This document shows positions 4,495 through 47,013 of a stretch of DNA of 64,000 bases, in pieces. The stretch lies in the NCBI RefSeq assembly GCF_048403405.1, contig NZ_CP183129.1, one strand, 5' to 3'. The translations under genes and the position numbers were made by a program. The notes below the pieces were generated by a model. The model was not told where the DNA came from. It searched no databases and worked only from the letters and a program-made list of their open reading frames with translations. The DNA comes from Escherichia coli (lineage in GTDB: Bacteria; Pseudomonadota; Gammaproteobacteria; Enterobacterales; Enterobacteriaceae). Each line of letters starts with the position of its first letter. Within the stretch, counting starts at the first letter, position 1.

Positions 4495-5258
4495 GTCAGC
4501 CATTATTATCCGTTAACGGCCTGATGATGCGCTTCGGCGGCCTGCTGGCGGTGAACAACGTCAATCTCGAATTGTACCCGCAGGAGATCGTCTCGTTAAT
4601 CGGCCCTAACGGTGCCGGAAAAACCACGGTCTTCAACTGCCTGACCGGATTCTACAAACCCACCGGCGGTACCATTTTACTGCGCGATCAGCACCTGGAA
4701 GGTTTACCGGGGCAGCAAATCGCCCGCATGGGCGTGGTGCGCACCTTCCAGCATGTGCGTCTGTTCCGTGAAATGACGGTGATTGAAAACCTGCTGGTGG
4801 CGCAGCATCAGCAACTGAAAACCGGGCTGTTCTCTGGCCTGTTGAAAACGCCTTCTTTCCGTCGCGCCCAGAGCGAAGCGCTCGACCGCGCCGCTACCTG
4901 GCTTGAGCGCATTGGTTTGCTGGAACATGCCAACCGTCAGGCGAGTAACCTGGCCTATGGTGACCAGCGTCGTCTGGAGATTGCCCGCTGCATGGTGACG
5001 CAGCCGGAGATTTTAATGCTCGACGAACCTGCGGCAGGTCTTAACCCGAAAGAGACGAAAGAGCTGGATGAGCTGATTGCCGAACTGCGTAACCATCACA
5101 ACACCACTATCTTGTTGATTGAACACGATATGAAGCTGGTGATGGGGATTTCAGACAGAATTTACGTGGTCAATCAGGGGACGCCGCTGGCAAACGGTAC
5201 GCCGGAGCAGATCCGTAATAACCCGGACGTGATCCGTGCCTATTTAGGTGAGGCATAA
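4491..5258 (+). CDS. livG: Branched-chain amino acid ABC transporter ATP-binding protein LivG
   Basis: 255 aa; Walker [13 protein letters not shown] signature and Walker [11 protein letters not shown]. Confidence 0.93.
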
Positions 5259-34823: not shown

Positions 34824-37289
<2,466 letters not shown>

Positions 37290-37305
37290 GTTCGCAAAGT
37301 GGTAA

Positions 37306-37355
37306 CTGCCGTGTGTTCTCTTAAAGCTATCGTTAATGGGCACACGGCATTTTTA
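37306..37355 (+). terminator. Intrinsic terminator after glgP
   Basis: tgccgtgtg ... cacacggca hairpin followed by tttttat. Confidence 0.6.
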
Positions 37356-37773
37356 TATCAGATAAACGATATGTCATGACAATTTACAGACAGCATCGAT
37401 ATATAATTCATATTTATTAATTCTTAATAATATTTCTCATCTGAGTATGTATCATACAATAAGCATTATAAATAACTAATAAATTATTTATTATATTTAT
37501 ATATTGCCCCACTCTTCAGTTATCCTGTCTAAAATAAATCTCTTTGTTTTCAAATGACTGTATTTTTATATAAAGTCAATCATTGCGAGCATGGATTCTT
37601 TTAGTTATATTACCAAGCAGCTCATATAATATTTTCCAGCCATTCTATCTCTTATTTTTTTTCTGTGGTTAACTACACCAGCTTTATTCATTTAAATAAT
37701 GTGACTTGTTAAAGCTGAATGTAAAAATAATCGCCAATATTGCTTGGATTTTTTAACAAAAGGAAAGGTATAA

Positions 37774-38478
37774 ATGAAATTCAATCTATCTAATTTATCC
37801 GCAGTTTTACTCGCATCAGGTATGCTGATGTCAACTGCGGTAACCGCTGCGCCAGGCGATGCATCACAATTTGGTGGTGCGGATACAGACTGGAGCACCG
37901 TTGATTATCCAAAACTCACCGATATGGATAGCAACACCGATGCGATGGGCGGAAACATCCGCTTTACTGGTCGTGTGGTTAAAGCGACGTGTAAGGTTGC
38001 TACAGAATCGAAACAGATTGAAGTGGTACTGCCAGTCGTACCTTCTAACGCTTTCACGGGCATTGATACCGAAGCAACGGGTGCCAGTAACCAGACTGAC
38101 TTCAACATTAAATTGACTGATTGTAGCAATACGGACAGTCAAAATATTGAATTTCGTTTTACTGGCGTAGCAGACGGTGCCAACCAGACGCTTGCCAATG
38201 AAGTGGAAGGAGCTGCTGATGCTGATGGTACTGGCGAAGCGGGAGCTACGGGTGTAGGGATTCGTATTTATTCTAAAAACACGACAACTGATGGCCTGAT
38301 TAAGCTGAACACACAAACTCCCCAGGGGAGTAGTTCTTCAGCAGCCTACGTGATTCCTGGCGATGCAGCCACTCATGATTTTACTGCGGCATTTACCGCG
38401 GGCTATGCTCAGAACGGTAGTACCGTTGCACCAGGTCTGGTGAAATCAACGGCAAGTTTCGTCGTGCTGTACGAATAA
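37774..38478 (+). CDS. Fimbrial major subunit (chaperone-usher pilin, 234 aa)
   Basis: Signal peptide MKFNLSNLSAVLLASGMLMSTAVTAA; conserved Cys pair; C-terminal SFVVLYE resembles a pilin donor-strand-acceptor terminus; RBS aaggaaagg. Confidence 0.8.
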   Translation: MKFNLSNLSAVLLASGMLMSTAVTAAPGDASQFGGADTDWSTVDYPKLTDMDSNTDAMGGNIRFTGRVVKATCKVATESKQIEVVLPVVPSNAFTGIDTEATGASNQTDFNIKLTDCSNTDSQNIEFRFTGVADGANQTLANEVEGAADADGTGEAGATGVGIRIYSKNTTTDGLIKLNTQTPQGSSSSAAYVIPGDAATHDFTAAFTAGYAQNGSTVAPGLVKSTASFVVLYE

Positions 38479-38598
38479 TTACAGCAAGATAATTTCAGGT
38501 TACAGTTACTTGTAACCTGAAATTAATATTACATGTTTATTTGTAATAAATAGACATGCATCAGTAATTACAATTAATTTCATCTACAAGGATGCAGT

Positions 38599-39351
38599 AT
38601 GAGATGGATTTCAAAAAATAAATGTTTTTCGAATAGAAACATTAATTCTTTGCTGAAGACCCAATATATCATAAGGGCCGGTGCTCTATTTTTACTATCC
38701 GCCATATCTATCAATGCTATTGCTGCGGGTGGCTTCGGTCTTGGTTCTACGCGTCTGGTTTATCCATCTGACAGTCAGCAAATTACGCTAAGTGTACAGA
38801 ATGGTGGGGCTAACACCAGCTATTTAATCCAGTCATGGATTGATGACAATCAAAGCAGTAAAAAAAGTCAGGATTTTGTGGTTACGCCTCCTTTATTTAT
38901 GTTACCAACGCGAAAAGAAGCCTCATTGAGGATAATGTTTATTGGTAAATCACAGTTACCGACTGATCGCGAAACATTATTCTGGATGAATGTGAAAGCG
39001 ATTCCGCCAACGGATGAGAAGAATACCCAGAAAAACACGTTACAACTGGCGTTACAAAACAGAATTAAATTATTTTACCGTCCGACTAATTTACCCGTTC
39101 AAGCTGGTAAAGCACGGGATATGCTGCGATTTAAATACGAAGGTAAACAGCTAAGAGTCATTAACCCTTCTCCCTATTATCTGACGGTGACTGGAATCAG
39201 GGTGCAAGGGGCAAAATTACCCAATGCGTTTGTTCCACCGAAAAGTGACGTAACAGTGTCTTCACCAGTGATGCTAGCCGGTGAAATTACTTATCAAACT
39301 ATCAATGATTACGGTGCCACAACGGCCAGGCAAAAGGGAACGATGCAATAA
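38599..39351 (+). CDS. Periplasmic fimbrial chaperone (PapD-like)
   Basis: 250 aa; conserved chaperone segments LGSTRLVYPSDSQ and NRIKLFYRP. Confidence 0.85.
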   Translation: MRWISKNKCFSNRNINSLLKTQYIIRAGALFLLSAISINAIAAGGFGLGSTRLVYPSDSQQITLSVQNGGANTSYLIQSWIDDNQSSKKSQDFVVTPPLFMLPTRKEASLRIMFIGKSQLPTDRETLFWMNVKAIPPTDEKNTQKNTLQLALQNRIKLFYRPTNLPVQAGKARDMLRFKYEGKQLRVINPSPYYLTVTGIRVQGAKLPNAFVPPKSDVTVSSPVMLAGEITYQTINDYGATTARQKGTMQ

Positions 39352-39392
39352 ACCTGGAAGATTAAAACGTTAAAGCAACTCAGGTCAGGGAT

Positions 39393-41984
39393 ATGAACCT
39401 AAAGCTCAGAAAACTCGAACACAGGATGGCAAGGCAGAAGCAGATGAGGCGGTGTATGCTGCTTCTACTGACACTTTTGCCTGCGTGTTCAGTGGCGGGT
39501 ATGCGCTTTAACCCTGCATTCCTGTCGGGTGATACAGAAGCTGTTGCTGATTTATCTCGTTTTGAGAAAGGGATGACATATCTACCTGGTAGTTATGAGG
39601 TTGAAATATGGGTCAATGATTCGCCTTTGACATCACGTAAGGTTACTTTCAAAGCTGATGAGCAGAATCAGTTGATCCCCTGTTTTTCGCTCGATGAGTT
39701 AGTTACTTTAGGAATTAACAAAAGTGCATTGCCGGAACAGGCGCAAGCAGAGGGAAATAATTGTCTCGATTTACGTATATGGTTCGCAGAAGTTCAATAC
39801 ACTCCTGAACTGGATGCGCAACGACTCAAACTGACCTTTCCGCAGGCAATATTAAAGCATGAAGCCCGTGGTTATATTCCACCTGAGGAATGGGATAATG
39901 GTATCCCGGCCATTCTTATTAATTATGATTTTTCTGGCAACAGTGATCGTGGAGACTATGCGTCTGATAGTTATTATTTAAATCTCCGTTCAGGTTTAAA
40001 TTTAGGGGCGTGGCGTTTTCGTGATTATTCTACATGGAGTCGTTCAGGTAATTCACCGGGTAAAATTGCACATGTGAGTAGTACGTTACAACGAGTAATT
40101 ATTCCTTTTAAAAGTGAATTAACACTAGGTGATACCTGGTCTTCATCGGATGTTTTCGACAGTGTGAGTATTCGTGGTGCTAAACTTGAATCCGATGAAA
40201 ACATGCTACCCGATAGCCAAAGTGGTTTTGCCCCCACTGTGCGCGGTATTGCTAAAAGCAATGCTCAGGTAACGATCAAACAAAATGGCTATGTTATTTA
40301 TCAGACATATACTCCACCGGGACCCTTTGAAATCAACGATCTGAACCCTACGTCTTCCGCTGGGGATTTGGAAGTTACGATCAAAGAGTCTGATAATTCC
40401 GAAACTATCTATACCATTCCTTACGCCGCTGTTCCCATTCTTCAACGCGAAGGGCATATTAAATATTCGGCAACTGCCGGTAAATATCGTAGCAATAGCT
40501 ATAATCAAAACAGTCCGAATGTCTTTCAAGGAGATTTGATTTGGGGGTTACCCTGGGATATTACCGCCTACGGAGGGATGCAATACTCAAATAATTATCG
40601 GGCAATAGCACTCGGGCTTGGGTTCAACCTTGGTATGTTTGGTGCGACGTCATTTGATTTAACGCAAGCCAATAGCACGCTTGCCGATGGCAGTAAACAT
40701 CAAGGGCAATCGTACCGTTTCCTATATTCAAAATCGTTAGTGCAGACAGGTACGGCTTTTCAGATTATTGGTTATCGCTATTCGACGGAGGGATTTTATT
40801 CGTTGAGTGATACCACATACAAACAAATGTCGGGTACGGTTATCGATCCAGATACCCTTAATGAAAAAGACTATGTTTATAACTGGAATGATTTTTATAA
40901 TTTACGTTATAACAAAAGAGGAAAGTTTCAGGCAAATATATCGCAACCATTGGGCGAATATGGCTCTATGTATTTGGCGGCAAGTCAACAAACTTACTGG
41001 AATACGAATAATAAAGATACCTTGTATCAGGTCGGCTATAATACGAGTGTACATGGGATTTATTTAAATATTGCTTATAATTATAGTAAGTCACCAGGTT
41101 CAGATGCGGACAGAATCTTATCCGTAAATGTCTCATTGCCGATCAGCAATTGGTTATCACCAGCTGTCGATGGGCGTACTGCGACAAATTCTATGACAGC
41201 AACTTATGGTTATAGTCAGGATAATAGCGGTCATGTAAATCAGTATGCCGGAGTATCTGGATCGCTGCTGGAACAACATAATCTCAACTATAATATTCAA
41301 CAAAATTTTGCCAACCAGAATAATGGCGAAAATGGCTCGGTAGGGATAAATTACCGTGGTACATATGGTTCACTAAATTCTGGATACAGCTACGATAATA
41401 ATGGTAACCAGCAATTTAACTATGGTTTAAGTGGTGCCCTGGTTATTCACGAAAATGGTCTCACGTTAAGCCAGCCGTTAGGAGAAACAAATATACTGAT
41501 AAAAGCACCTGGGGCAAACAATGTAAATGTGGAACGCGGAACGGGGGTTAAAACAGACTGGCGTGGCTATGCTGTCGTACCTTATGCCACGGAATATCGG
41601 CGTAATAATATCTCTTTAGACCCTATGTCTATGAGTATGCATACAGAATTAGATGCTACTACTATGGAAGTGATACCCAGCAAAGGTGCTTTAGTTCGTG
41701 CTGAGTTTAATGCACATGTCGGTATTCGAGGTTTATTTAATGTTCATTATCGTAATAAACCAGTTCCATTTGGTGCGACGGTCAGTGTACCCACTGAGGG
41801 GACAACTCAGATTACAGGAATAGTGGGTGACAGTGGACAGGTTTATCTCTCCGGTTTGCCTTTACAAGGCATAATAAATATACAGTGGGGAGAAAGTTCT
41901 TATCAGCAATGTCGGGCAAACTATCAATTACCGGAAAGTGAGTTGGATAATGCCATTAGCTATGCAAATCTGGAGTGCCGCTAA
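39393..41984 (+). CDS. Outer membrane fimbrial usher protein
   Basis: 863 aa; N-terminal FNPAFL usher motif; beta-rich, size typical of ushers. The exact start within the first ~35 codons is uncertain. Confidence 0.88.
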   Translation: MNLKLRKLEHRMARQKQMRRCMLLLLTLLPACSVAGMRFNPAFLSGDTEAVADLSRFEKGMTYLPGSYEVEIWVNDSPLTSRKVTFKADEQNQLIPCFSLDELVTLGINKSALPEQAQAEGNNCLDLRIWFAEVQYTPELDAQRLKLTFPQAILKHEARGYIPPEEWDNGIPAILINYDFSGNSDRGDYASDSYYLNLRSGLNLGAWRFRDYSTWSRSGNSPGKIAHVSSTLQRVIIPFKSELTLGDTWSSSDVFDSVSIRGAKLESDENMLPDSQSGFAPTVRGIAKSNAQVTIKQNGYVIYQTYTPPGPFEINDLNPTSSAGDLEVTIKESDNSETIYTIPYAAVPILQREGHIKYSATAGKYRSNSYNQNSPNVFQGDLIWGLPWDITAYGGMQYSNNYRAIALGLGFNLGMFGATSFDLTQANSTLADGSKHQGQSYRFLYSKSLVQTGTAFQIIGYRYSTEGFYSLSDTTYKQMSGTVIDPDTLNEKDYVYNWNDFYNLRYNKRGKFQANISQPLGEYGSMYLAASQQTYWNTNNKDTLYQVGYNTSVHGIYLNIAYNYSKSPGSDADRILSVNVSLPISNWLSPAVDGRTATNSMTATYGYSQDNSGHVNQYAGVSGSLLEQHNLNYNIQQNFANQNNGENGSVGINYRGTYGSLNSGYSYDNNGNQQFNYGLSGALVIHENGLTLSQPLGETNILIKAPGANNVNVERGTGVKTDWRGYAVVPYATEYRRNNISLDPMSMSMHTELDATTMEVIPSKGALVRAEFNAHVGIRGLFNVHYRNKPVPFGATVSVPTEGTTQITGIVGDSGQVYLSGLPLQGIINIQWGESSYQQCRANYQLPESELDNAISYANLECR

Positions 41985-42547
41985 TGAATATATTACAAAA
42001 ATTTATTCTATTAATGTTTAGATCATTGTTCATGATGGTGATTTCATATAACGCACTGGCTAACGATACTGTAGTGGTCACATTTACAGGACAATTATTA
42101 GCGAAAACGTGTGATATTACAACTGGAAGTAAAGACCAGCCAGTAAACATGGGAACTTATGACGTCAATGATTTTTTGAATGTAGGGGATGTTTCTGGCA
42201 GCCATACATTTACGATCAATCTGGAAGGATGTCCTACAACAACCAGTACTGTTTATAGTTCAGGAGTAAGTGCTAATGTGCAGTTTACCGGGGATGCTGA
42301 TGCTATAAATACCACTTTATTACGCCTTACTTCCAGCGCGGATAGTGCAACTGGAGTGGGCATCGAAATTTTAGACAGTAATGATAAAATTATAGCAATT
42401 AATAGTGAATCAGGATTCAAAGAGTTAATTTTAAATAATAATGGCGATGCCAGTTTAACCTTTAAACTCCGCTATAAGTCAACTCAGCAAAACGTACATG
42501 CGGGACAGGCGAACGCACTATTGTACTTTGATATAGACTATCAGTGA
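41984..42547 (+). CDS. Fimbrial minor subunit
   Basis: ORF 41975..42547 begins at GTG; ATG at 41984 overlaps the usher stop and gives signal peptide MNILQKFILLMFRSLFMMVISYNALA; pilin-like Cys pair. Confidence 0.78.
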   Translation: MNILQKFILLMFRSLFMMVISYNALANDTVVVTFTGQLLAKTCDITTGSKDQPVNMGTYDVNDFLNVGDVSGSHTFTINLEGCPTTTSTVYSSGVSANVQFTGDADAINTTLLRLTSSADSATGVGIEILDSNDKIIAINSESGFKELILNNNGDASLTFKLRYKSTQQNVHAGQANALLYFDIDYQ

Positions 42548-42554
42548 GGTTAAT

Positions 42555-43079
42555 ATGACACGATATTGGAATTTAATTGCCCTATTATTCTCTGTGATAT
42601 CTATGTCATCCATTGCTGATGATACAACGCATGCAGGTGTTGTACGCATCGAAGGAATTATAACAGCAAAGACTTGTATTGTTGCCGATGAGTCTAAAAA
42701 TTTCACAGTTAACATGCCTGATGTTCCCAGTTATACGGTGAGAAATTCAGGGAGTGTTACTGAAAAAATTGGCTTCTCTTTAAAGTTAACCCGTTGTGGC
42801 AGTGATGTCAGTAATGCCAATGTCACGTTTGATGGAATACCAGTTAGTGAAGACGCAGCCCTATATAAACTGGAAGAGGGCTCAGTCGATGGGTTAGCAC
42901 TGGCTATTTTTGATAACAACAGACAAAGTATTAGTAATGGTATAAAGAGTACAAGTTATGCCCTTACACCATTGGTAGATAATACATTGCATTTCTTTGC
43001 TGCTTATAAAGCTATAAAAAATGATGTACAACCAGGAGATGCGAATGCATCAGTTTCCTTTATCGTCACTTATGATTAA
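42555..43079 (+). CDS. Fimbrial minor subunit
   Basis: 174 aa with signal peptide MTRYWNLIALLFSVISMSSIA; pilin-like C-terminus SFIVTYD. Confidence 0.78.
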   Translation: MTRYWNLIALLFSVISMSSIADDTTHAGVVRIEGIITAKTCIVADESKNFTVNMPDVPSYTVRNSGSVTEKIGFSLKLTRCGSDVSNANVTFDGIPVSEDAALYKLEEGSVDGLALAIFDNNRQSISNGIKSTSYALTPLVDNTLHFFAAYKAIKNDVQPGDANASVSFIVTYD

Positions 43080-43824
43080 CGTGCTGATATGCATTTTAAT
43101 ATGTTGCACAAATGCGCAGGCAGGAGTTGTTGTTGGCGGTACTCGTTTTGTTTACCCAGAAAAGCAGTCATCAATTTCGGTCGAGCTTAAAAATACTGCC
43201 AGTAAAGATATGCTGGTTAAAATTTCCGTGACACCTGATGATGGACGTCAGTTAAAAGGGACACTGGAATCCCAGCCTTTACTTCCAGATAAGGCGTTTA
43301 TTGCCACACCACCATTATTGGTACTTAAACAAGATAAAAATACCAAAATAAGAATCAATCGCGTGGGGGGGCAGTTACCTATAGATCGTGAGAGTTTATT
43401 TATACTGAATATTGCAGCGTTACCTGCTCAGGAACAAAACTCACAGCTTAAGAATGAAAATCAACTCCAGGTGGCTGTACGTAATAGGATGAAAATATTT
43501 TACCGCCCAGAGACGTTATCAGGTAATCCACTTGACGCTTATCAACAGTTACGCTGGTCGCGAAACAATGAAGCTGTCACCGTTTTTAACCCTACGCCCT
43601 GGTATGTGACACTCTATAATTTATCTATTGATGGTAAAAGCATAAATGGTGGCATGGTTGCACCATTTAGTCATCGCCAACAGGATTGGTGTCAGCGGCA
43701 AGGATATTGTGAGATTAACTGGCAAACACTAGATCTTTACAATAATGCCTTACCCGTATGGAGCGTAAAATTAAATGTTTTACAAAATAATGCTATTATG
43801 GGTGCAGTAGCGATACATGGATAA
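43045..43824 (+). CDS. Second periplasmic fimbrial chaperone (PapD-like)
   Basis: ORF 43021..43824; ATG at 43045 follows AGGAGA and gives MHQFPLSSLMINVLICILICCTNAQA; motifs GGTRFVYPEKQ and NRMKIFYRP. Confidence 0.82.
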   Translation: MHQFPLSSLMINVLICILICCTNAQAGVVVGGTRFVYPEKQSSISVELKNTASKDMLVKISVTPDDGRQLKGTLESQPLLPDKAFIATPPLLVLKQDKNTKIRINRVGGQLPIDRESLFILNIAALPAQEQNSQLKNENQLQVAVRNRMKIFYRPETLSGNPLDAYQQLRWSRNNEAVTVFNPTPWYVTLYNLSIDGKSINGGMVAPFSHRQQDWCQRQGYCEINWQTLDLYNNALPVWSVKLNVLQNNAIMGAVAIHG

Positions 43825-43834
43825 CTGGAGAAGC

Positions 43835-44968
43835 ATGATGCTTACTTATTTTTGGGGGAATATAAAAGCAATTTGTATATTGTTTGTTCTTTTAGTCAGT
43901 AGCTGCTATAACATAGTATATGCTGAAGATATGGGACGGGATCGCGCCTTTTGTTATCCTGGTGCACCAGGTAATAATACTACTCCTGCGACATTTTCTT
44001 ATAATTTTGGTACGGTAATTGTCTCAGATGTTAATAATAATTCGCCTGGGACAGTATTACCCTCGCAGGACTGGAAAATAGGGCATTATAAGGCTTATTG
44101 TAATTCTCTGGATGATTATGAGGTTTATTTTTCTGGTGTTTCTGGGATTGATCCGTCAGGAGCGTCTGGTGATCATCAGGGGAGCGATATATTTATTCCT
44201 TTGACTCATGAAATATCTGTCTCGACACATGTAAAGCTCTATAATAAAAATGGCACAATGACAGATAAGGCAGTACCTTTTGACAACTATAGCACCAATT
44301 ATCCAGCAGACAGAAGTAAACCATCAAGTTGGGCCTCAGGAACAGAAGGTTATATAAAAATCAGACTTGATAAAAAAATAATATCCGATATCTCAATAAA
44401 TAACGTATTGCTGGTTTCTTTGTATGTCAGCCAGTTTCCAACAGAGCACGGACCAATTCCAGTATTTAATGCTTATATTGGCAACTTAAATATTGAAGTT
44501 CCACAAGGTTGCACAATTAATGAGGGAACTAGTTTTACCGTTAATATGCCGGATGTCTGGGCCAGCGAATTAAGTCGGGCTGGTGCTGGAGTAAAACCAA
44601 CAGGTATTTCTCCAGTGGCAACCACTATTCCGATAAATTGTACGAACAAAGATATTGATGCCGTAATGACGCTGGTTTTCGATGGCAATATTTCATCAAC
44701 GAGAGATGTTAATGGTCGGCAAAGCATTATTCAGGCGGAGGATAACCCCGACGTTGGCATTATGATTATGGATAGCCAACAGGAATCCGTAGACTTAAAT
44801 GCATTGGCTGCGCATGTTGGTGTGCCATTTAAGTTAGTTGAAAACCAGGCTGAGTCAGCTCAGACGGCAGATGTGACTTTTCTGTCTCTCCCTGTAAGTA
44901 CCACAGGGCGACGCCCTGCTGCAGGCCGTTATAATGCCCTGGCTGTTTTGCGGGTGGAATACCAATGA
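43835..44968 (+). CDS. Putative fimbrial tip adhesin (two-domain pilin-like, about 377 aa)
   Basis: ORF 43817..44968; start likely MMLTYFWGNIKAICILFVLLVSS at 43835; size and terminal position fit a lectin-plus-pilin adhesin. Start uncertain by up to 6 codons. Confidence 0.7.
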   Translation: MMLTYFWGNIKAICILFVLLVSSCYNIVYAEDMGRDRAFCYPGAPGNNTTPATFSYNFGTVIVSDVNNNSPGTVLPSQDWKIGHYKAYCNSLDDYEVYFSGVSGIDPSGASGDHQGSDIFIPLTHEISVSTHVKLYNKNGTMTDKAVPFDNYSTNYPADRSKPSSWASGTEGYIKIRLDKKIISDISINNVLLVSLYVSQFPTEHGPIPVFNAYIGNLNIEVPQGCTINEGTSFTVNMPDVWASELSRAGAGVKPTGISPVATTIPINCTNKDIDAVMTLVFDGNISSTRDVNGRQSIIQAEDNPDVGIMIMDSQQESVDLNALAAHVGVPFKLVENQAESAQTADVTFLSLPVSTTGRRPAAGRYNALAVLRVEYQ

Positions 44969-45312
44969 TGTGTGAGTCAGTGCAGAATCGGATTAGCCCG
45001 TTTTTAGCCATCGGTAGGGTAAAGTTTGATGGAAAATATGGGTTATGTGCCGATGTATCCCACAATGAAATAACCCTCGAGGGAAAGGAATCAGCGCGAT
45101 GAACAAATTCACGGTGTTTTGCTGCTAGGTGTGGTATTTCTCGGCTTTATTATTGTACCGTTCTTGATATGGCCGACGGTGGTTGCGCTGGCTGCTTGTA
45201 TTATTACGCTGAGTTTTCTGGGGAGATACTGTTCTCTATCCCGCTCATGATCAGGCATATTTCACTTCTGGAATTACAACTTTGGTTATCGGTTGTATAT
45301 GCGCTTTGTCCA

Positions 45313-45419
45313 TGCCGGATGCGACGTGAACGTCTTATTGGCCTACAAAATCATGCAAATTCAATATATTGCATAAACCACGTAGGCCTGATAAGCGTAG
45401 CGCATCAGGCAGTTTTTTT
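45313..45419. repeat. REP/BIME element with trailing T-run (terminator-like on + strand)
   Basis: tgccggatgcgacgtgaacgtcttattggcctac ... gtaggcctgataagcgtagcgcatcaggc followed by agttttttt. Confidence 0.6.
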
Positions 45420-45474
45420 GTTTATCATCAGTCTCAGGTCAGATTGAAATCTGACCTGACCACCTTACGTTAAA

Positions 45475-46980
45475 TCACGAAGCCAGCGATAACCTCTGCT
45501 GCGTATACTCCACTAGCCACTGACTCACACGAGATTGTTGATCCGCATTCAGCCACATGCCTTGTTTTGTGCGACGCCACAGGGCATCGTCGGCACGGCG
45601 GACCCATTCGTGATCCACCAGGTATTTCAGTTCCGCTTCGTAGAACTCATGACCGAAATCCTCCCCGAGGTCGCTTATCGCCCCCGCATTGCCGAGCAGC
45701 AGTTCGCTGTTGCTGCCGTAGGTGCGCGCGTAGTGACGTGCCAGCGATTCGGTCAGGAATGGGTAACGGCGGCGCAGGCGAGCGGCATAATCGTCGCGGT
45801 CGCCTTCAATGGCACCACCCGGCAGCACGCTCTCTTTCGTCCACGCCGGGCCAATACCCTGATAATATGGCGTCAGTTTTTCCAGCGCATGTTCCGCCAG
45901 TTTGCGGTAGGTCGTCAGCTTACCGCCGAATACCGACAGCAGCGGCGCTTTGCCGTTTTCATCATGGATATCAAGCGTGTAATCACGAGTAATAGCCTGC
46001 GGCGAGTCGGACTCATCATCACATAGCGGACGCACGCCGGAGTAGGTCCAGACGATATCGTCCCGGCTTAACTGCTTTTTAAAGTGCGTGTTATACACTT
46101 TCAGCAGGTAATTGATTTCACTCTCTTCAATCTTCACGGCTTTCGGATCACCTTTGTATTCCACATCGGTGGTGCCGATGATGGAAAACTCGTCCATCCA
46201 CGGGATCACGAACACAATACGTTTATCTTCGTTTTGCAGAATGTAGGCTTGCTTCTGGGTATGTACGCGTGGCACTACAATATGGCTGCCTTTGATCAGG
46301 CGAATGCCATAAGGCGAAGGCAGATGCATCCCCTCGTCGAAGAACTGTTTCACCCACGGGCCGGTGGCGTTCACGAGGCCGCGCGCTTGCCAGCTATATT
46401 TTTTGCCGGTATCGATATCTTCCGCTTCCACAATCCACAGGCCGTTTTCGCGGCGAGCAGAAGTGGCACGAGTACGGGTAAGCACTTCACCGCCTTTACG
46501 CACCACCATCTGGGCGTTGGCGAGTACCAGACGGGCGTCGTCTACCCAACAGTCGGAATATTCGAATCCGCGCTTAATTTCCGGTTTTAATACTGAATTT
46601 GCGCCAAAACGCAAACCGGTTGATCCCGGTAGGCTGGTGCGTTTACCCAGATGATCGTACATAAACAGACCAATCCGAATCATCCACGCCGGGCGCAGAT
46701 GCGGACGATGCGGCAGGCGAAAACGCATCGGGAAGGCGATATGCGGGGCCATTTTCAGCAGCACTTCACGTTCAGCCAGCGCCTCGCTGACCAGGCGGAA
46801 TTCATAGTGCTCAAGGTAGCGTAGGCCACCGTGAATGAGTTTTGAACTGGCGGAGGAGGTCGCGCAAGCGAGATCCTGCGCCTCCAGCATCAGCACGGAT
46901 AAACCGCGTCCAGCGGCGTCTGCCGCGATACCAGCACCATTGATGCCGCCACCTATCACAATCAGATCTTTGGTTTCCAT
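45475..46980 (-). CDS. glpD: Aerobic glycerol-3-phosphate dehydrogenase GlpD (501 aa)
   Basis: ORF 45475..46995; native start taken at METKDLIVIGGGINGAGIAADAAGRGL (FAD-binding GxGxxG). Confidence 0.93.
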   Translation of the reverse strand: METKDLIVIGGGINGAGIAADAAGRGLSVLMLEAQDLACATSSASSKLIHGGLRYLEHYEFRLVSEALAEREVLLKMAPHIAFPMRFRLPHRPHLRPAWMIRIGLFMYDHLGKRTSLPGSTGLRFGANSVLKPEIKRGFEYSDCWVDDARLVLANAQMVVRKGGEVLTRTRATSARRENGLWIVEAEDIDTGKKYSWQARGLVNATGPWVKQFFDEGMHLPSPYGIRLIKGSHIVVPRVHTQKQAYILQNEDKRIVFVIPWMDEFSIIGTTDVEYKGDPKAVKIEESEINYLLKVYNTHFKKQLSRDDIVWTYSGVRPLCDDESDSPQAITRDYTLDIHDENGKAPLLSVFGGKLTTYRKLAEHALEKLTPYYQGIGPAWTKESVLPGGAIEGDRDDYAARLRRRYPFLTESLARHYARTYGSNSELLLGNAGAISDLGEDFGHEFYEAELKYLVDHEWVRRADDALWRRTKQGMWLNADQQSRVSQWLVEYTQQRLSLAS

Positions 46981-47013
46981 GCTGCCCTCATTCACTTTCG
47001 TTAAAGCTCATAA

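What the first reader, a model, noticed from the sequence alone, without database searches (positions are those of the whole stretch)
45099..45250. Possible frameshifted small hydrophobic ORF with a strong RBS downstream of the fimbrial operon
ATG at 45099 is preceded by gggaaaggaa at good spacing but runs only 9 codons (MNKFTVFCC) to TAG. One frame over, from the T-run at 45117-45120, the reading continues as LLLGVVFLGFIIVPFLIWPTVVALAACIITLSFLGRYCSLSRS, a plausible single-pass membrane peptide. This looks like a small membrane protein gene interrupted by a 1-nt indel in a homopolymer (true pseudogene, sequencing error or slippage site), or an unannotated small protein starting at TTG 45119.
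Basis: seen in the sequence. Interest (0 to 1): 0.35.

Follow-up and report, generated by a model that had tools for sequence, protein, structure and literature searches.

The report
Decayed gene scar beside fimbrial operon
The "frameshifted small membrane-protein gene" is an inactive scar made from the start of one larger E. coli gene fused to a fragment of another, so it is an ordinary pseudogene that RefSeq already flags as such.

Summary
ATG 45099 sits behind an AAGGA ribosome-binding site and runs 9 codons to a TAG. A hydrophobic 43-codon frame follows at 45119-45250.

The window is E. coli, and the site is the variable glgP-glpD gap. Other strains carry a three-gene operon there:
- gene 1: a membrane-anchored PstS-family protein, 502 aa
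- gene 2: a PstS-family lipoprotein, 330 aa
- gene 3: an uncharacterised membrane protein, about 200 aa

In the window an auf-type fimbrial island has replaced almost all of gene 1. What remains is a composite scar:
- the last codons of gene 1
- the RBS and first 11 codons of gene 2, with a 1-nt deletion (CACCGG to CACGG) that is not in the T-run
- a deletion of about 982 bp that fuses gene 2 to codon 12 of gene 3
- gene 3 codons 12-70, with a second 1-nt deletion in a G-run
- a 433-bp deletion running into a REP/BIME element

All 227 complete E. coli genomes with this allele share both 1-nt deletions, so sequencing error is excluded. No ~50-aa ancestral gene exists. PGAP annotates the site as a "frameshifted; incomplete" pseudogene. 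Interest is low.

The parts
45017..45073 (+). 3' tail of 'gene 1', the membrane-anchored PstS-family protein that is 502 aa when intact. It reads ...ENMGYVPMYPTMK and stops at TAA 45071-45073. Everything upstream of it was replaced by the fimbrial island.
   Evidence: blastn against N96, O157 and PEC403. Alignments A4 and A6. Translation. The intact gene 1 ends ...VEDVGYVPLYPTMK*.
45085..45089 (+). Shine-Dalgarno AAGGA of 'gene 2', 9 nt before the ATG. It is conserved in intact operons as gagagaaaggaatcagcgcaATG.
45099..45134 (+). Start codon and first ~11 codons (the lipoprotein signal peptide) of 'gene 2', a PstS-family lipoprotein that is 330 aa when intact. A 1-nt deletion after 45112 (CACCGG to CACGG) creates the 9-codon ORF 45099-45128 (MNKFTVFCC*). 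The original frame continues as GVLLLG in frame +2.
   Evidence: The intact gene 2 starts ATGAATAAATTCACCGGTGTTTTACTATTAGGT, giving MNKFTGVLLLGTALLAGC. Alignment A4. The repaired translation reads MNKFTGVLLLG....
45129..45141 (.). Junction of deletion D1, about 982 bp (N96 L010 3964-4945). It removed the rest of gene 2 and the first 11 codons of gene 3, and fused the two reading frames in frame. The flanking homologies overlap by about 7 nt.
   Evidence: blastn HSP ends: window 45017-45141 matches L010 3838-3963, and window 45135-45307 matches L010 4946-5119.
45135..45307 (+). Codons ~12-70 of 'gene 3', the uncharacterised membrane protein that is ~200 aa when intact. A 1-nt deletion at the G-run 45220-45223 moves the true frame from +2 (ORF 45119-45250) to +1 (inside ORF 45169-45447).
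   Evidence: Alignments A1 and A3. 90% nt identity to N96 gene 3. The repaired fragment is 71-75% identical to intact proteins at the amino-acid level.
45300..45307 (.). Junction of deletion D2, 433 bp (N96 L010 5120-5552). It removed gene 3 codons ~71-200, the stop codon and 38 bp downstream. It ends at the left edge of a REP/BIME element.
   Evidence: window 45300-45500 matches L010 5553-5752. Alignment A1.
45308..45415 (.). REP/BIME (RIP-type) repetitive element between the scar and the end of glpD. It provides the spurious C-terminal 'coding' part of ORF 45169-45447.
   Evidence: This segment matches a median of 19 places per E. coli genome. Rfam ES036/CssrF hit at 45347-45389, 43.6 bits against a gathering score of 37.6.
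37294..45016 (+). Context: a seven-gene auf-type chaperone-usher fimbrial island. It replaces the glgP terminator region and all but the last ~57 nt of gene 1.
   Evidence: Homology with non-fimbrial alleles stops at 37293-37298 and resumes at 45017-45023. Gene content. The auf operon lies between glpD and glgP (PMC12928451).
45475..46995 (-). Context: glpD, the conserved right-hand boundary of the variable locus.

Best explanation
The feature is a non-functional composite pseudogene scar in the E. coli glgP-glpD variable locus.

The ancestral arrangement is still intact in many strains: glgP > gene 1 (PstS-family protein with an N-terminal membrane domain, 502 aa) > gene 2 (PstS-family lipoprotein, 330 aa) > gene 3 (uncharacterised polytopic membrane protein, ~200 aa) < glpD.

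In the window's lineage five changes have occurred (their order is not resolved here):
- An auf-type fimbrial island replaced gene 1, except its last ~19 codons.
- A deletion of about 982 bp fused the RBS, ATG and first 11 codons of gene 2 in frame to codon 12 of gene 3.
- A 433-bp deletion removed gene 3 codons 71-200 and ended in a REP/BIME element.
- A 1-nt deletion occurred at 45112/45113 (CC to C).
- A 1-nt deletion occurred at the G-run 45220-45223.

These changes spread the remaining coding sequence over three frames. The 'strong RBS + 9-codon ORF' is the orphaned start of gene 2. The 'hydrophobic peptide' is the first two transmembrane segments of gene 3.

Shown: homology, breakpoints, lesions, and their fixation in 227 genomes.
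Inferred: that the scar has no function. At most, the 9-codon ORF is translated incidentally on read-through transcripts from the fimbrial operon.
For: - PGAP annotates the identical sequence in NZ_CP062824.1 as a pseudogene, 'hypothetical protein; frameshifted; incomplete; missing C-terminus', at positions equal to window 45107-45321. Three other strains carry the same annotation.
- Intact ~200-aa orthologues sit at the same position, next to glpD, in PEC403, O157:H7, EC71, 30COLEC and N96.
- Alignment A1 shows the +5-nt frame change, the -1 nt change and a gap of about 440 bp.
- The gene 2 start in intact strains matches window 45076-45130, apart from one missing C. Its product begins MNKFTGVLLLGTALLAGC.
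- blastn maps four collinear homology blocks and two deletions.
- The repaired translation MNKFTGVLLLG|VVFLGFIIVPFLIWPTVVALAACIITLSFLGEILFSIPLMIRHISLLELQLWLSVVYAL is 71-75% identical to intact gene 3 proteins.
- Queries carrying either 1-nt repair find no exact match. All 227 allele carriers lack the C. The 228 records closest to the second repaired query lack the G; the other 17 matches, one of which was inspected (N96), appear to be intact gene 3 alleles of other strains. Four strains aligned base by base share every lesion.
- The 227 genomes with this adhesin allele equal in number the 227 genomes with the scar.
- No promoter-like site was found in 44800-45600. No terminator-like site lies between the adhesin stop and the scar.
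Against: - The RBS and ATG are intact and well spaced, so the 9-codon ORF could be translated.
- The D1 fusion is in frame. That has a 1-in-3 chance of arising by accident, but it could hint that a fusion protein once existed.
- The scar sequence is highly conserved among the 227 genomes. This is expected for a young allele and so is uninformative about selection.
- No expression data exist for this allele.
Confidence: 0.93

Rival explanations
1. A functional, unannotated small membrane protein of 43 aa, either starting at TTG 45119 or produced from ATG 45099 by ribosomal slippage on the T-run.
For: The frame is open for 43 codons and strongly hydrophobic. An RBS-bearing ATG lies 20 nt upstream. 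The sequence is invariant in the four carriers aligned.
Against: - There is no Shine-Dalgarno sequence before TTG 45119.
- The hydrophobicity is inherited from TM1-TM2 of a 200-aa protein.
- The C-terminus (GRYCSLSRS*) is out-of-frame product created by the second 1-nt deletion.
- The T-run is also T4 in intact gene 2, where it is read straight through.
- GUG UUU UGC is not a canonical X XXY YYZ slippery heptamer, and a -1 slip would re-pair tRNA-Phe on GUU (inference from the sequence).
- Gene callers in public data give inconsistent products here, from 49 to 115 aa.
Confidence: 0.03
2. A sequencing or assembly error in a homopolymer of an otherwise intact gene.
For: The second lesion lies in a G-run, and homopolymers are error-prone.
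Against: - Both 1-nt deletions are present in all 227 independent complete genomes with this allele.
- Even after both repairs the gene lacks about 1.4 kb.
Confidence: 0.01
3. The orphaned RBS plus 9-codon ORF has been co-opted as a short leader or 3'-UTR mini-ORF. In this role it would influence the stability of the fimbrial mRNA 3' end, or convergent transcription with glpD.
For: The RBS and ATG are intact. No terminator separates the ORF from the fimbrial adhesin gene, so it is probably co-transcribed. REP/BIME elements lie downstream.
Against: - No evidence of selection: codon 2 varies (AAC/AAA, N/K) and the spacer varies (C/T) among carriers.
- ORFs called on metagenome and sequencing-run assemblies (P0016, P0017) imply a changed G-run in the RBS region; this is inferred from their protein sequences, not from their DNA.
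- The signals are fully explained as inheritance from gene 2.
Confidence: 0.03

Closest known systems
RefSeq/PGAP pseudogene annotations at this exact site, e.g. IMQ31_RS23730 in NZ_CP062824.1 (also AC5G19_RS16795, H7R48_RS25925, V6S27_RS12995)
   Same: Same sequence and same call: 'hypothetical protein; frameshifted; incomplete; missing C-terminus'.
   Different: PGAP models it only against the ~200-aa gene 3 family. It does not record that the start codon, RBS and first 11 codons come from the neighbouring PstS-family lipoprotein gene. It also does not record the two large deletions.
E. coli K-12 yzgL (b3427), 'putative uncharacterized protein YzgL', 93 aa, between glgP and glpD
   Same: Same locus and the same kind of object: a deletion scar of the same three-gene operon that leaves a hydrophobic ORF. 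K-12 keeps gene 1 codons 1-~74, fused to the last ~60 nt of gene 3 and read out of frame.
   Different: It retains different pieces: the gene 1 N-terminus rather than the gene 2 start plus the gene 3 N-terminus. It is one 2.8-kb deletion with no fimbrial island. YzgL is only 20% identical to the window fragment, because the two derive from different genes.
Intact Escherichia ~200-aa hypothetical membrane protein (WP_000981061.1, WP_061092826.1, WP_000981269.1, WP_063100091.1, WP_000589347.1)
   Same: Window 45135-45307 is homologous to codons 12-70 (87-90% nt identity to the PstS-PstS-type alleles, 73% to the EC71 type). It occupies the same position next to glpD.
   Different: The window copy lacks codons 1-11 and 71-200 and carries a frameshift. 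The family itself has no Pfam or NCBIfam model and no known function. Every hit that carries an organism name is from Escherichia; many metagenome hits are unnamed.
auf (aufABCDEFG) fimbrial locus of UPEC/APEC, between glpD and glgP
   Same: Same insertion site, same seven-gene order, and the same right-hand junction inside the end of gene 1 (PMC12928451).
   Different: - The classical allele was seen in an O2:K1 APEC strain and is taken here to be the B2 type. It is found in 558 genomes, and its adhesin gene is 77-79% identical at the nucleotide level.
- In the two loci inspected, that allele is followed by three intact genes (236, 255 and 201 aa).
- The window's allele, found in 227 genomes, is followed only by the scar.

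Membership tests
Gene 3 family (Escherichia ~200-aa hypothetical membrane protein next to glpD) | Sequence homology to family members | tested here: met
   Window 45135-45307 is 87-90% identical at the nucleotide level to N96, O157 and PEC403 gene 3. The repaired peptide is 71-75% identical at the amino-acid level.
Gene 3 family (Escherichia ~200-aa hypothetical membrane protein next to glpD) | Conserved position: the last gene before convergent glpD | tested here: met
Gene 3 family (Escherichia ~200-aa hypothetical membrane protein next to glpD) | Uninterrupted ORF of 196-201 aa with its own start | tested here: not met
   The window copy lacks codons 1-11 and 71-200 and has a 1-nt deletion at 45220-45223. 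It is therefore a pseudogene fragment, not a functional member.
PstS-family lipoprotein ('gene 2', WP_001032214.1-like) | Conserved RBS, start and lipoprotein signal peptide (MNKFTGVLLLG..LAGC) | tested here: inconclusive
   The RBS, ATG and 11 codons are present with one missing C. The lipobox itself is deleted.
PstS-family lipoprotein ('gene 2', WP_001032214.1-like) | PBP_like_2 / PstS substrate-binding domain | tested here: not met
   In the intact protein the domain spans residues 94-320. That whole region is deleted in the window (D1).
Independent small membrane-protein gene (sORF) | Own start codon with a ribosome-binding site | tested here: not met
   The sequence upstream of TTG 45119 (aaattcacggtgt) has no Shine-Dalgarno sequence. 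The only RBS serves ATG 45099 in another frame.
Independent small membrane-protein gene (sORF) | Conservation of the short ORF as such in related genomes | tested here: not met
   Outside the 227-genome allele, the homologous DNA is part of 330-aa and 200-aa genes. No ~50-aa ORF exists there.
Independent small membrane-protein gene (sORF) | Evidence of translation | not testable with these tools
   No ribosome-profiling or proteomic data are available for carrier strains. K-12 lacks this allele.
Programmed ribosomal frameshift site | A slippery sequence at the frame junction that homologues need in order to make the full product | tested here: not met
   The T4 run is identical in intact gene 2, which is read in a single frame. 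The frame change comes from a lost C five bases upstream.
REP/BIME repetitive extragenic element (right flank) | Multi-copy dispersed element in the E. coli chromosome | tested here: met
   Window 45300-45473 matches 5-42 places per genome, median 19. Rfam ES036 scores above its gathering threshold.

The most novel reading that the evidence does not exclude
The scar is not inert. Its intact RBS and ATG drive translation on the 3' end of the fimbrial (auf-type) transcript. The product would be either the 9-residue peptide or, through low-level frame slippage, a signal-peptide-TM fusion micro-protein. This has been retained in the 227-genome lineage because it affects fimbrial mRNA stability or envelope physiology.
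Probability: 0.03. Interest if true: 0.3.

Novelty: already known. Interest (0 to 1): 0.07.

Why it matters
It matters little biologically. This is an example of gene decay at a known recombination and indel hotspot, the glp-glg region of E. coli.

It has some practical value for annotation:
- A good RBS followed by a hydrophobic ORF can be a chimeric remnant of two neighbouring genes.
- The 92-aa ORF 45169-45447, and the 49-115-aa 'proteins' that gene callers make here, are artefacts.
- K-12's yzgL is the same kind of scar.

The intact three-gene PstS-like operon, seen here only in Escherichia, remains uncharacterised. It is the more interesting object, but it is not present in this window.

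Tried and rejected
Rejected: intact gene 2 has the same T4, and the lost base is a C at 45112/13.
- **First alignment against gene 3 alone.** This suggested an unexplained '+5 nt' in a divergent N-terminus. The puzzle was resolved once the gene 2 start was compared.
- **YzgL as a homologue of the window peptide.** Rejected: identity is only 20%. YzgL derives from the gene 1 N-terminus instead.
- **Pfam and NCBIfam scans of the intact gene 3.** No family was found, only a sub-threshold 'septation inhibitor' hit of 20 bits against a cut-off of 120.
- **Protein search with the repaired 70-aa fragment.** It returned only fragmentary ORF calls. No intact protein has this N-terminus.
- **Metagenome contigs L008 and L009.** They carry deletion D2 without the frameshifts. 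This may mean D2 is the older event, but chimeric assembly cannot be excluded, so nothing rests on it.
- **Promoter and terminator scan.** It found nothing relevant in 44969-45475.
- **Literature search for yzgL and the locus.** It gave only passing mentions, plus confirmation that auf lies between glpD and glgP and that the region is a structural hotspot.

Full report
**Observation.**
- ATG 45099 follows agggaaagga. The AAGGA core is 45085-45089, with a 9-nt spacer.
- The ATG opens a 9-codon ORF, MNKFTVFCC, that stops at TAG 45126-45128.
- One frame over, TTG 45119..45250 encodes the hydrophobic 43-mer (M)LLGVVFLGFIIVPFLIWPTVVALAACIITLSFLGRYCSLSRS.

**Genomic setting.** The window is E. coli.
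- glgP ends at 37289. A seven-gene chaperone-usher fimbrial operon runs from 37774 to 44968.
- glpD is convergent at 45475-46995, followed by glpE.
- A complete genome identical over 44969-45474 (NZ_CP062824.1) carries a PGAP pseudogene at the positions equal to window 45107-45321. Its note reads 'hypothetical protein; frameshifted; incomplete; partial in the middle of a contig; missing C-terminus'. Three other strains have the same annotation.

**What the intact locus looks like.** Many strains have no fimbrial operon in the glgP-glpD gap. Instead they carry three same-strand genes:
- Gene 1 is a 502-aa 'PstS family' protein with an N-terminal membrane domain.
- Gene 2 is a 330-aa PstS-family lipoprotein with a PBP_like_2 domain (1e-29).
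- Gene 3 is a ~200-aa hypothetical membrane protein.

A second allele class (EC71) replaces gene 2 with two hypothetical genes and keeps a diverged gene 3. Some homologue of window 45040-45300 is found in 4136 of 5426 complete E. coli genomes. The window's own version is found in only 227.

**Anatomy of the scar.** Alignment with intact gene 3 showed three things:
- Window 45135-45307 corresponds to codons 12-70.
- A 1-nt deletion lies near the G-run 45220-45223. It moves the true frame into ORF 45169-45447, which reads ...EILFSIPLMIRHISLLELQLWLSVVYAL.
- About 440 bp are missing after 45307.

The N-terminal 35 nt did not fit gene 3; relative to it they showed an unexplained '+5 nt'. Comparison with the start of gene 2 resolved this.
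- Intact strains read ...gggctatgtgccgctgtatccaacaatgaaataacgctcgagagaaaggaatcagcgcaATGAATAAATTCACCGGTGTTTTACTATTAGGT. This encodes MNKFTGVLLLGTALLAGC, a lipoprotein signal peptide.
- The window matches this stretch from 45017 to about 45134, except for one missing C (CACCGG to CACGG, after 45112).
- The RBS and ATG therefore belong to gene 2. The end of gene 1 (...GYVPMYPTMK*, stop at 45071-45073) lies just upstream.

blastn against strain N96 gives four collinear blocks:
- 37230-37293: the end of glgP
- 45017-45141: the gene 1 tail, the intergenic region and gene 2 codons 1-14
- 45135-45307: gene 3 nt 35-208
- 45300-45500: the intergenic REP region and the end of glpD

These blocks define two deletions. 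D1 is about 982 bp and D2 is 433 bp. The flanking homologies overlap by 7-8 nt at each junction.

Repairing both 1-nt deletions gives MNKFTGVLLLG|VVFLGFIIVPFLIWPTVVALAACIITLSFLGEILFSIPLMIRHISLLELQLWLSVVYAL. This is 71-75% identical to intact gene 3 proteins. The D1 fusion is in frame.

**Real mutation or error?**
- A 72-nt query with the C restored matched all 227 carriers, each over 71 nt and with at least one gap. None matched exactly.
- A 68-nt query with the G restored matched 228 records that lack the G. It also matched 17 records of equal length at about 94% identity. The one inspected, N96, carries an intact gene 3 in a complete three-gene operon.
- Four carriers aligned base by base share every lesion and both junctions. 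They differ at only 7 scattered single-base positions across the 512 aligned columns, including N/K at codon 2 of the 9-codon ORF.
- The lesions are therefore fixed in this allele lineage.
- The number of genomes with the window's adhesin allele (227) equals the number with the scar.

**Fimbrial context.**
- The auf operon of ExPEC is reported to lie between glpD and glgP (PMC12928451).
- The window's operon has the auf gene order. Its adhesin gene is 77-79% identical at the nucleotide level to an allele found in 558 genomes, including an O2:K1 APEC strain.
- In the two loci of that allele inspected, three intact genes (236, 255 and 201 aa) follow the adhesin gene.
- Both alleles retain the same short tail of gene 1, so the island's right junction is shared.

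**The parent family.**
- Gene 3 has no Pfam or NCBIfam family.
- Its homologues are all labelled 'hypothetical' or 'putative membrane protein'. The hits that carry an organism name are from E. coli, E. albertii, E. marmotae and other Escherichia.
- A simple hydropathy scan places its first hydrophobic block at residues 4-52. This is the part retained in the window.

**Rivals.**
- An independent small protein from TTG 45119 is unlikely. It has no Shine-Dalgarno sequence, its C-terminus is out-of-frame product, and no conserved short ORF exists elsewhere.
- Programmed frameshifting is not supported, because homologues read the same T4 run in a single frame.
- Sequencing error is excluded.
- Incidental translation of the 9-codon ORF on read-through fimbrial transcripts is plausible, since no terminator-like site intervenes. 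It remains untested.

**Verdict.** This is an ordinary, already-annotated pseudogene at a known structural hotspot (PMC13185298). Here it is resolved in more detail as a chimeric scar of two genes. Interest is low.

Noticed in passing
L004 (NC_000913.3) 4725-5006, minus strand; compare L010 2386-2610 and 5455-5514: K-12 yzgL (b3427, 93 aa) is itself a deletion scar of the same operon. Gene 1 codons 1-~74 are fused by a deletion of about 2.84 kb to the last ~60 nt of gene 3, which is read out of frame. Its RefSeq label, 'putative uncharacterized protein', hides this.
   Followed up: yes
window 37774-44968: The fimbrial operon is an auf-type cluster with seven genes: major subunit, chaperone, usher, two minor subunits, a second chaperone and an adhesin. 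It is a divergent allele. Its adhesin gene is only 77-79% identical at the nucleotide level to the common allele (558 genomes), and the window's allele is found in 227 of 5426 complete genomes.
   Followed up: partly
window 45169-45447 (+): This 92-aa ORF is spurious. Its middle is gene 3 coding sequence, and its last ~45 codons are a read-through of REP/BIME repeats. Equivalent ORFs are deposited as 'conserved hypothetical protein' (for example E. coli B354, P0021).
   Followed up: yes
window 45347-45389 (+): Rfam ES036 (CssrF) sRNA scores above its gathering threshold (43.6 vs 37.6 bits) inside the BIME. From my own knowledge, this sequence (tgcaaattcaatatattgca) looks like the IHF-binding central motif of RIP/BIME-1 elements. 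The hit probably marks the repeat family rather than a locus-specific sRNA.
   Followed up: no
window 45434-45459: A perfect 12-nt inverted repeat (TCAGGTCAGATT / AATCTGACCTGA, 2-nt loop) lies 16 nt beyond the glpD stop codon. It could be a glpD 3'-end hairpin. It has no adjacent U-run, so it is not a canonical intrinsic terminator.
   Followed up: no
L008 13-360 and L009 332-676 (metagenome contigs): These contigs carry the same 433-bp deletion junction (D2) but neither 1-nt deletion. They have normal gene 3 N-termini and give 114-115-aa ORFs. This suggests D2 predates the frameshifts and has spread by recombination, but chimeric metagenome assembly is not excluded.
   Followed up: partly
L003 1441-2949, L003 2975-3967, L003 3970-4575: The intact three-gene operon has two PstS-like binding domains, one fused to a ~200-aa membrane domain and one a lipoprotein, plus a 200-aa membrane protein. 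It has no ABC permease or ATPase. Gene 3 homologues with an organism name are all from Escherichia. The operon appears to be uncharacterised.
   Followed up: partly
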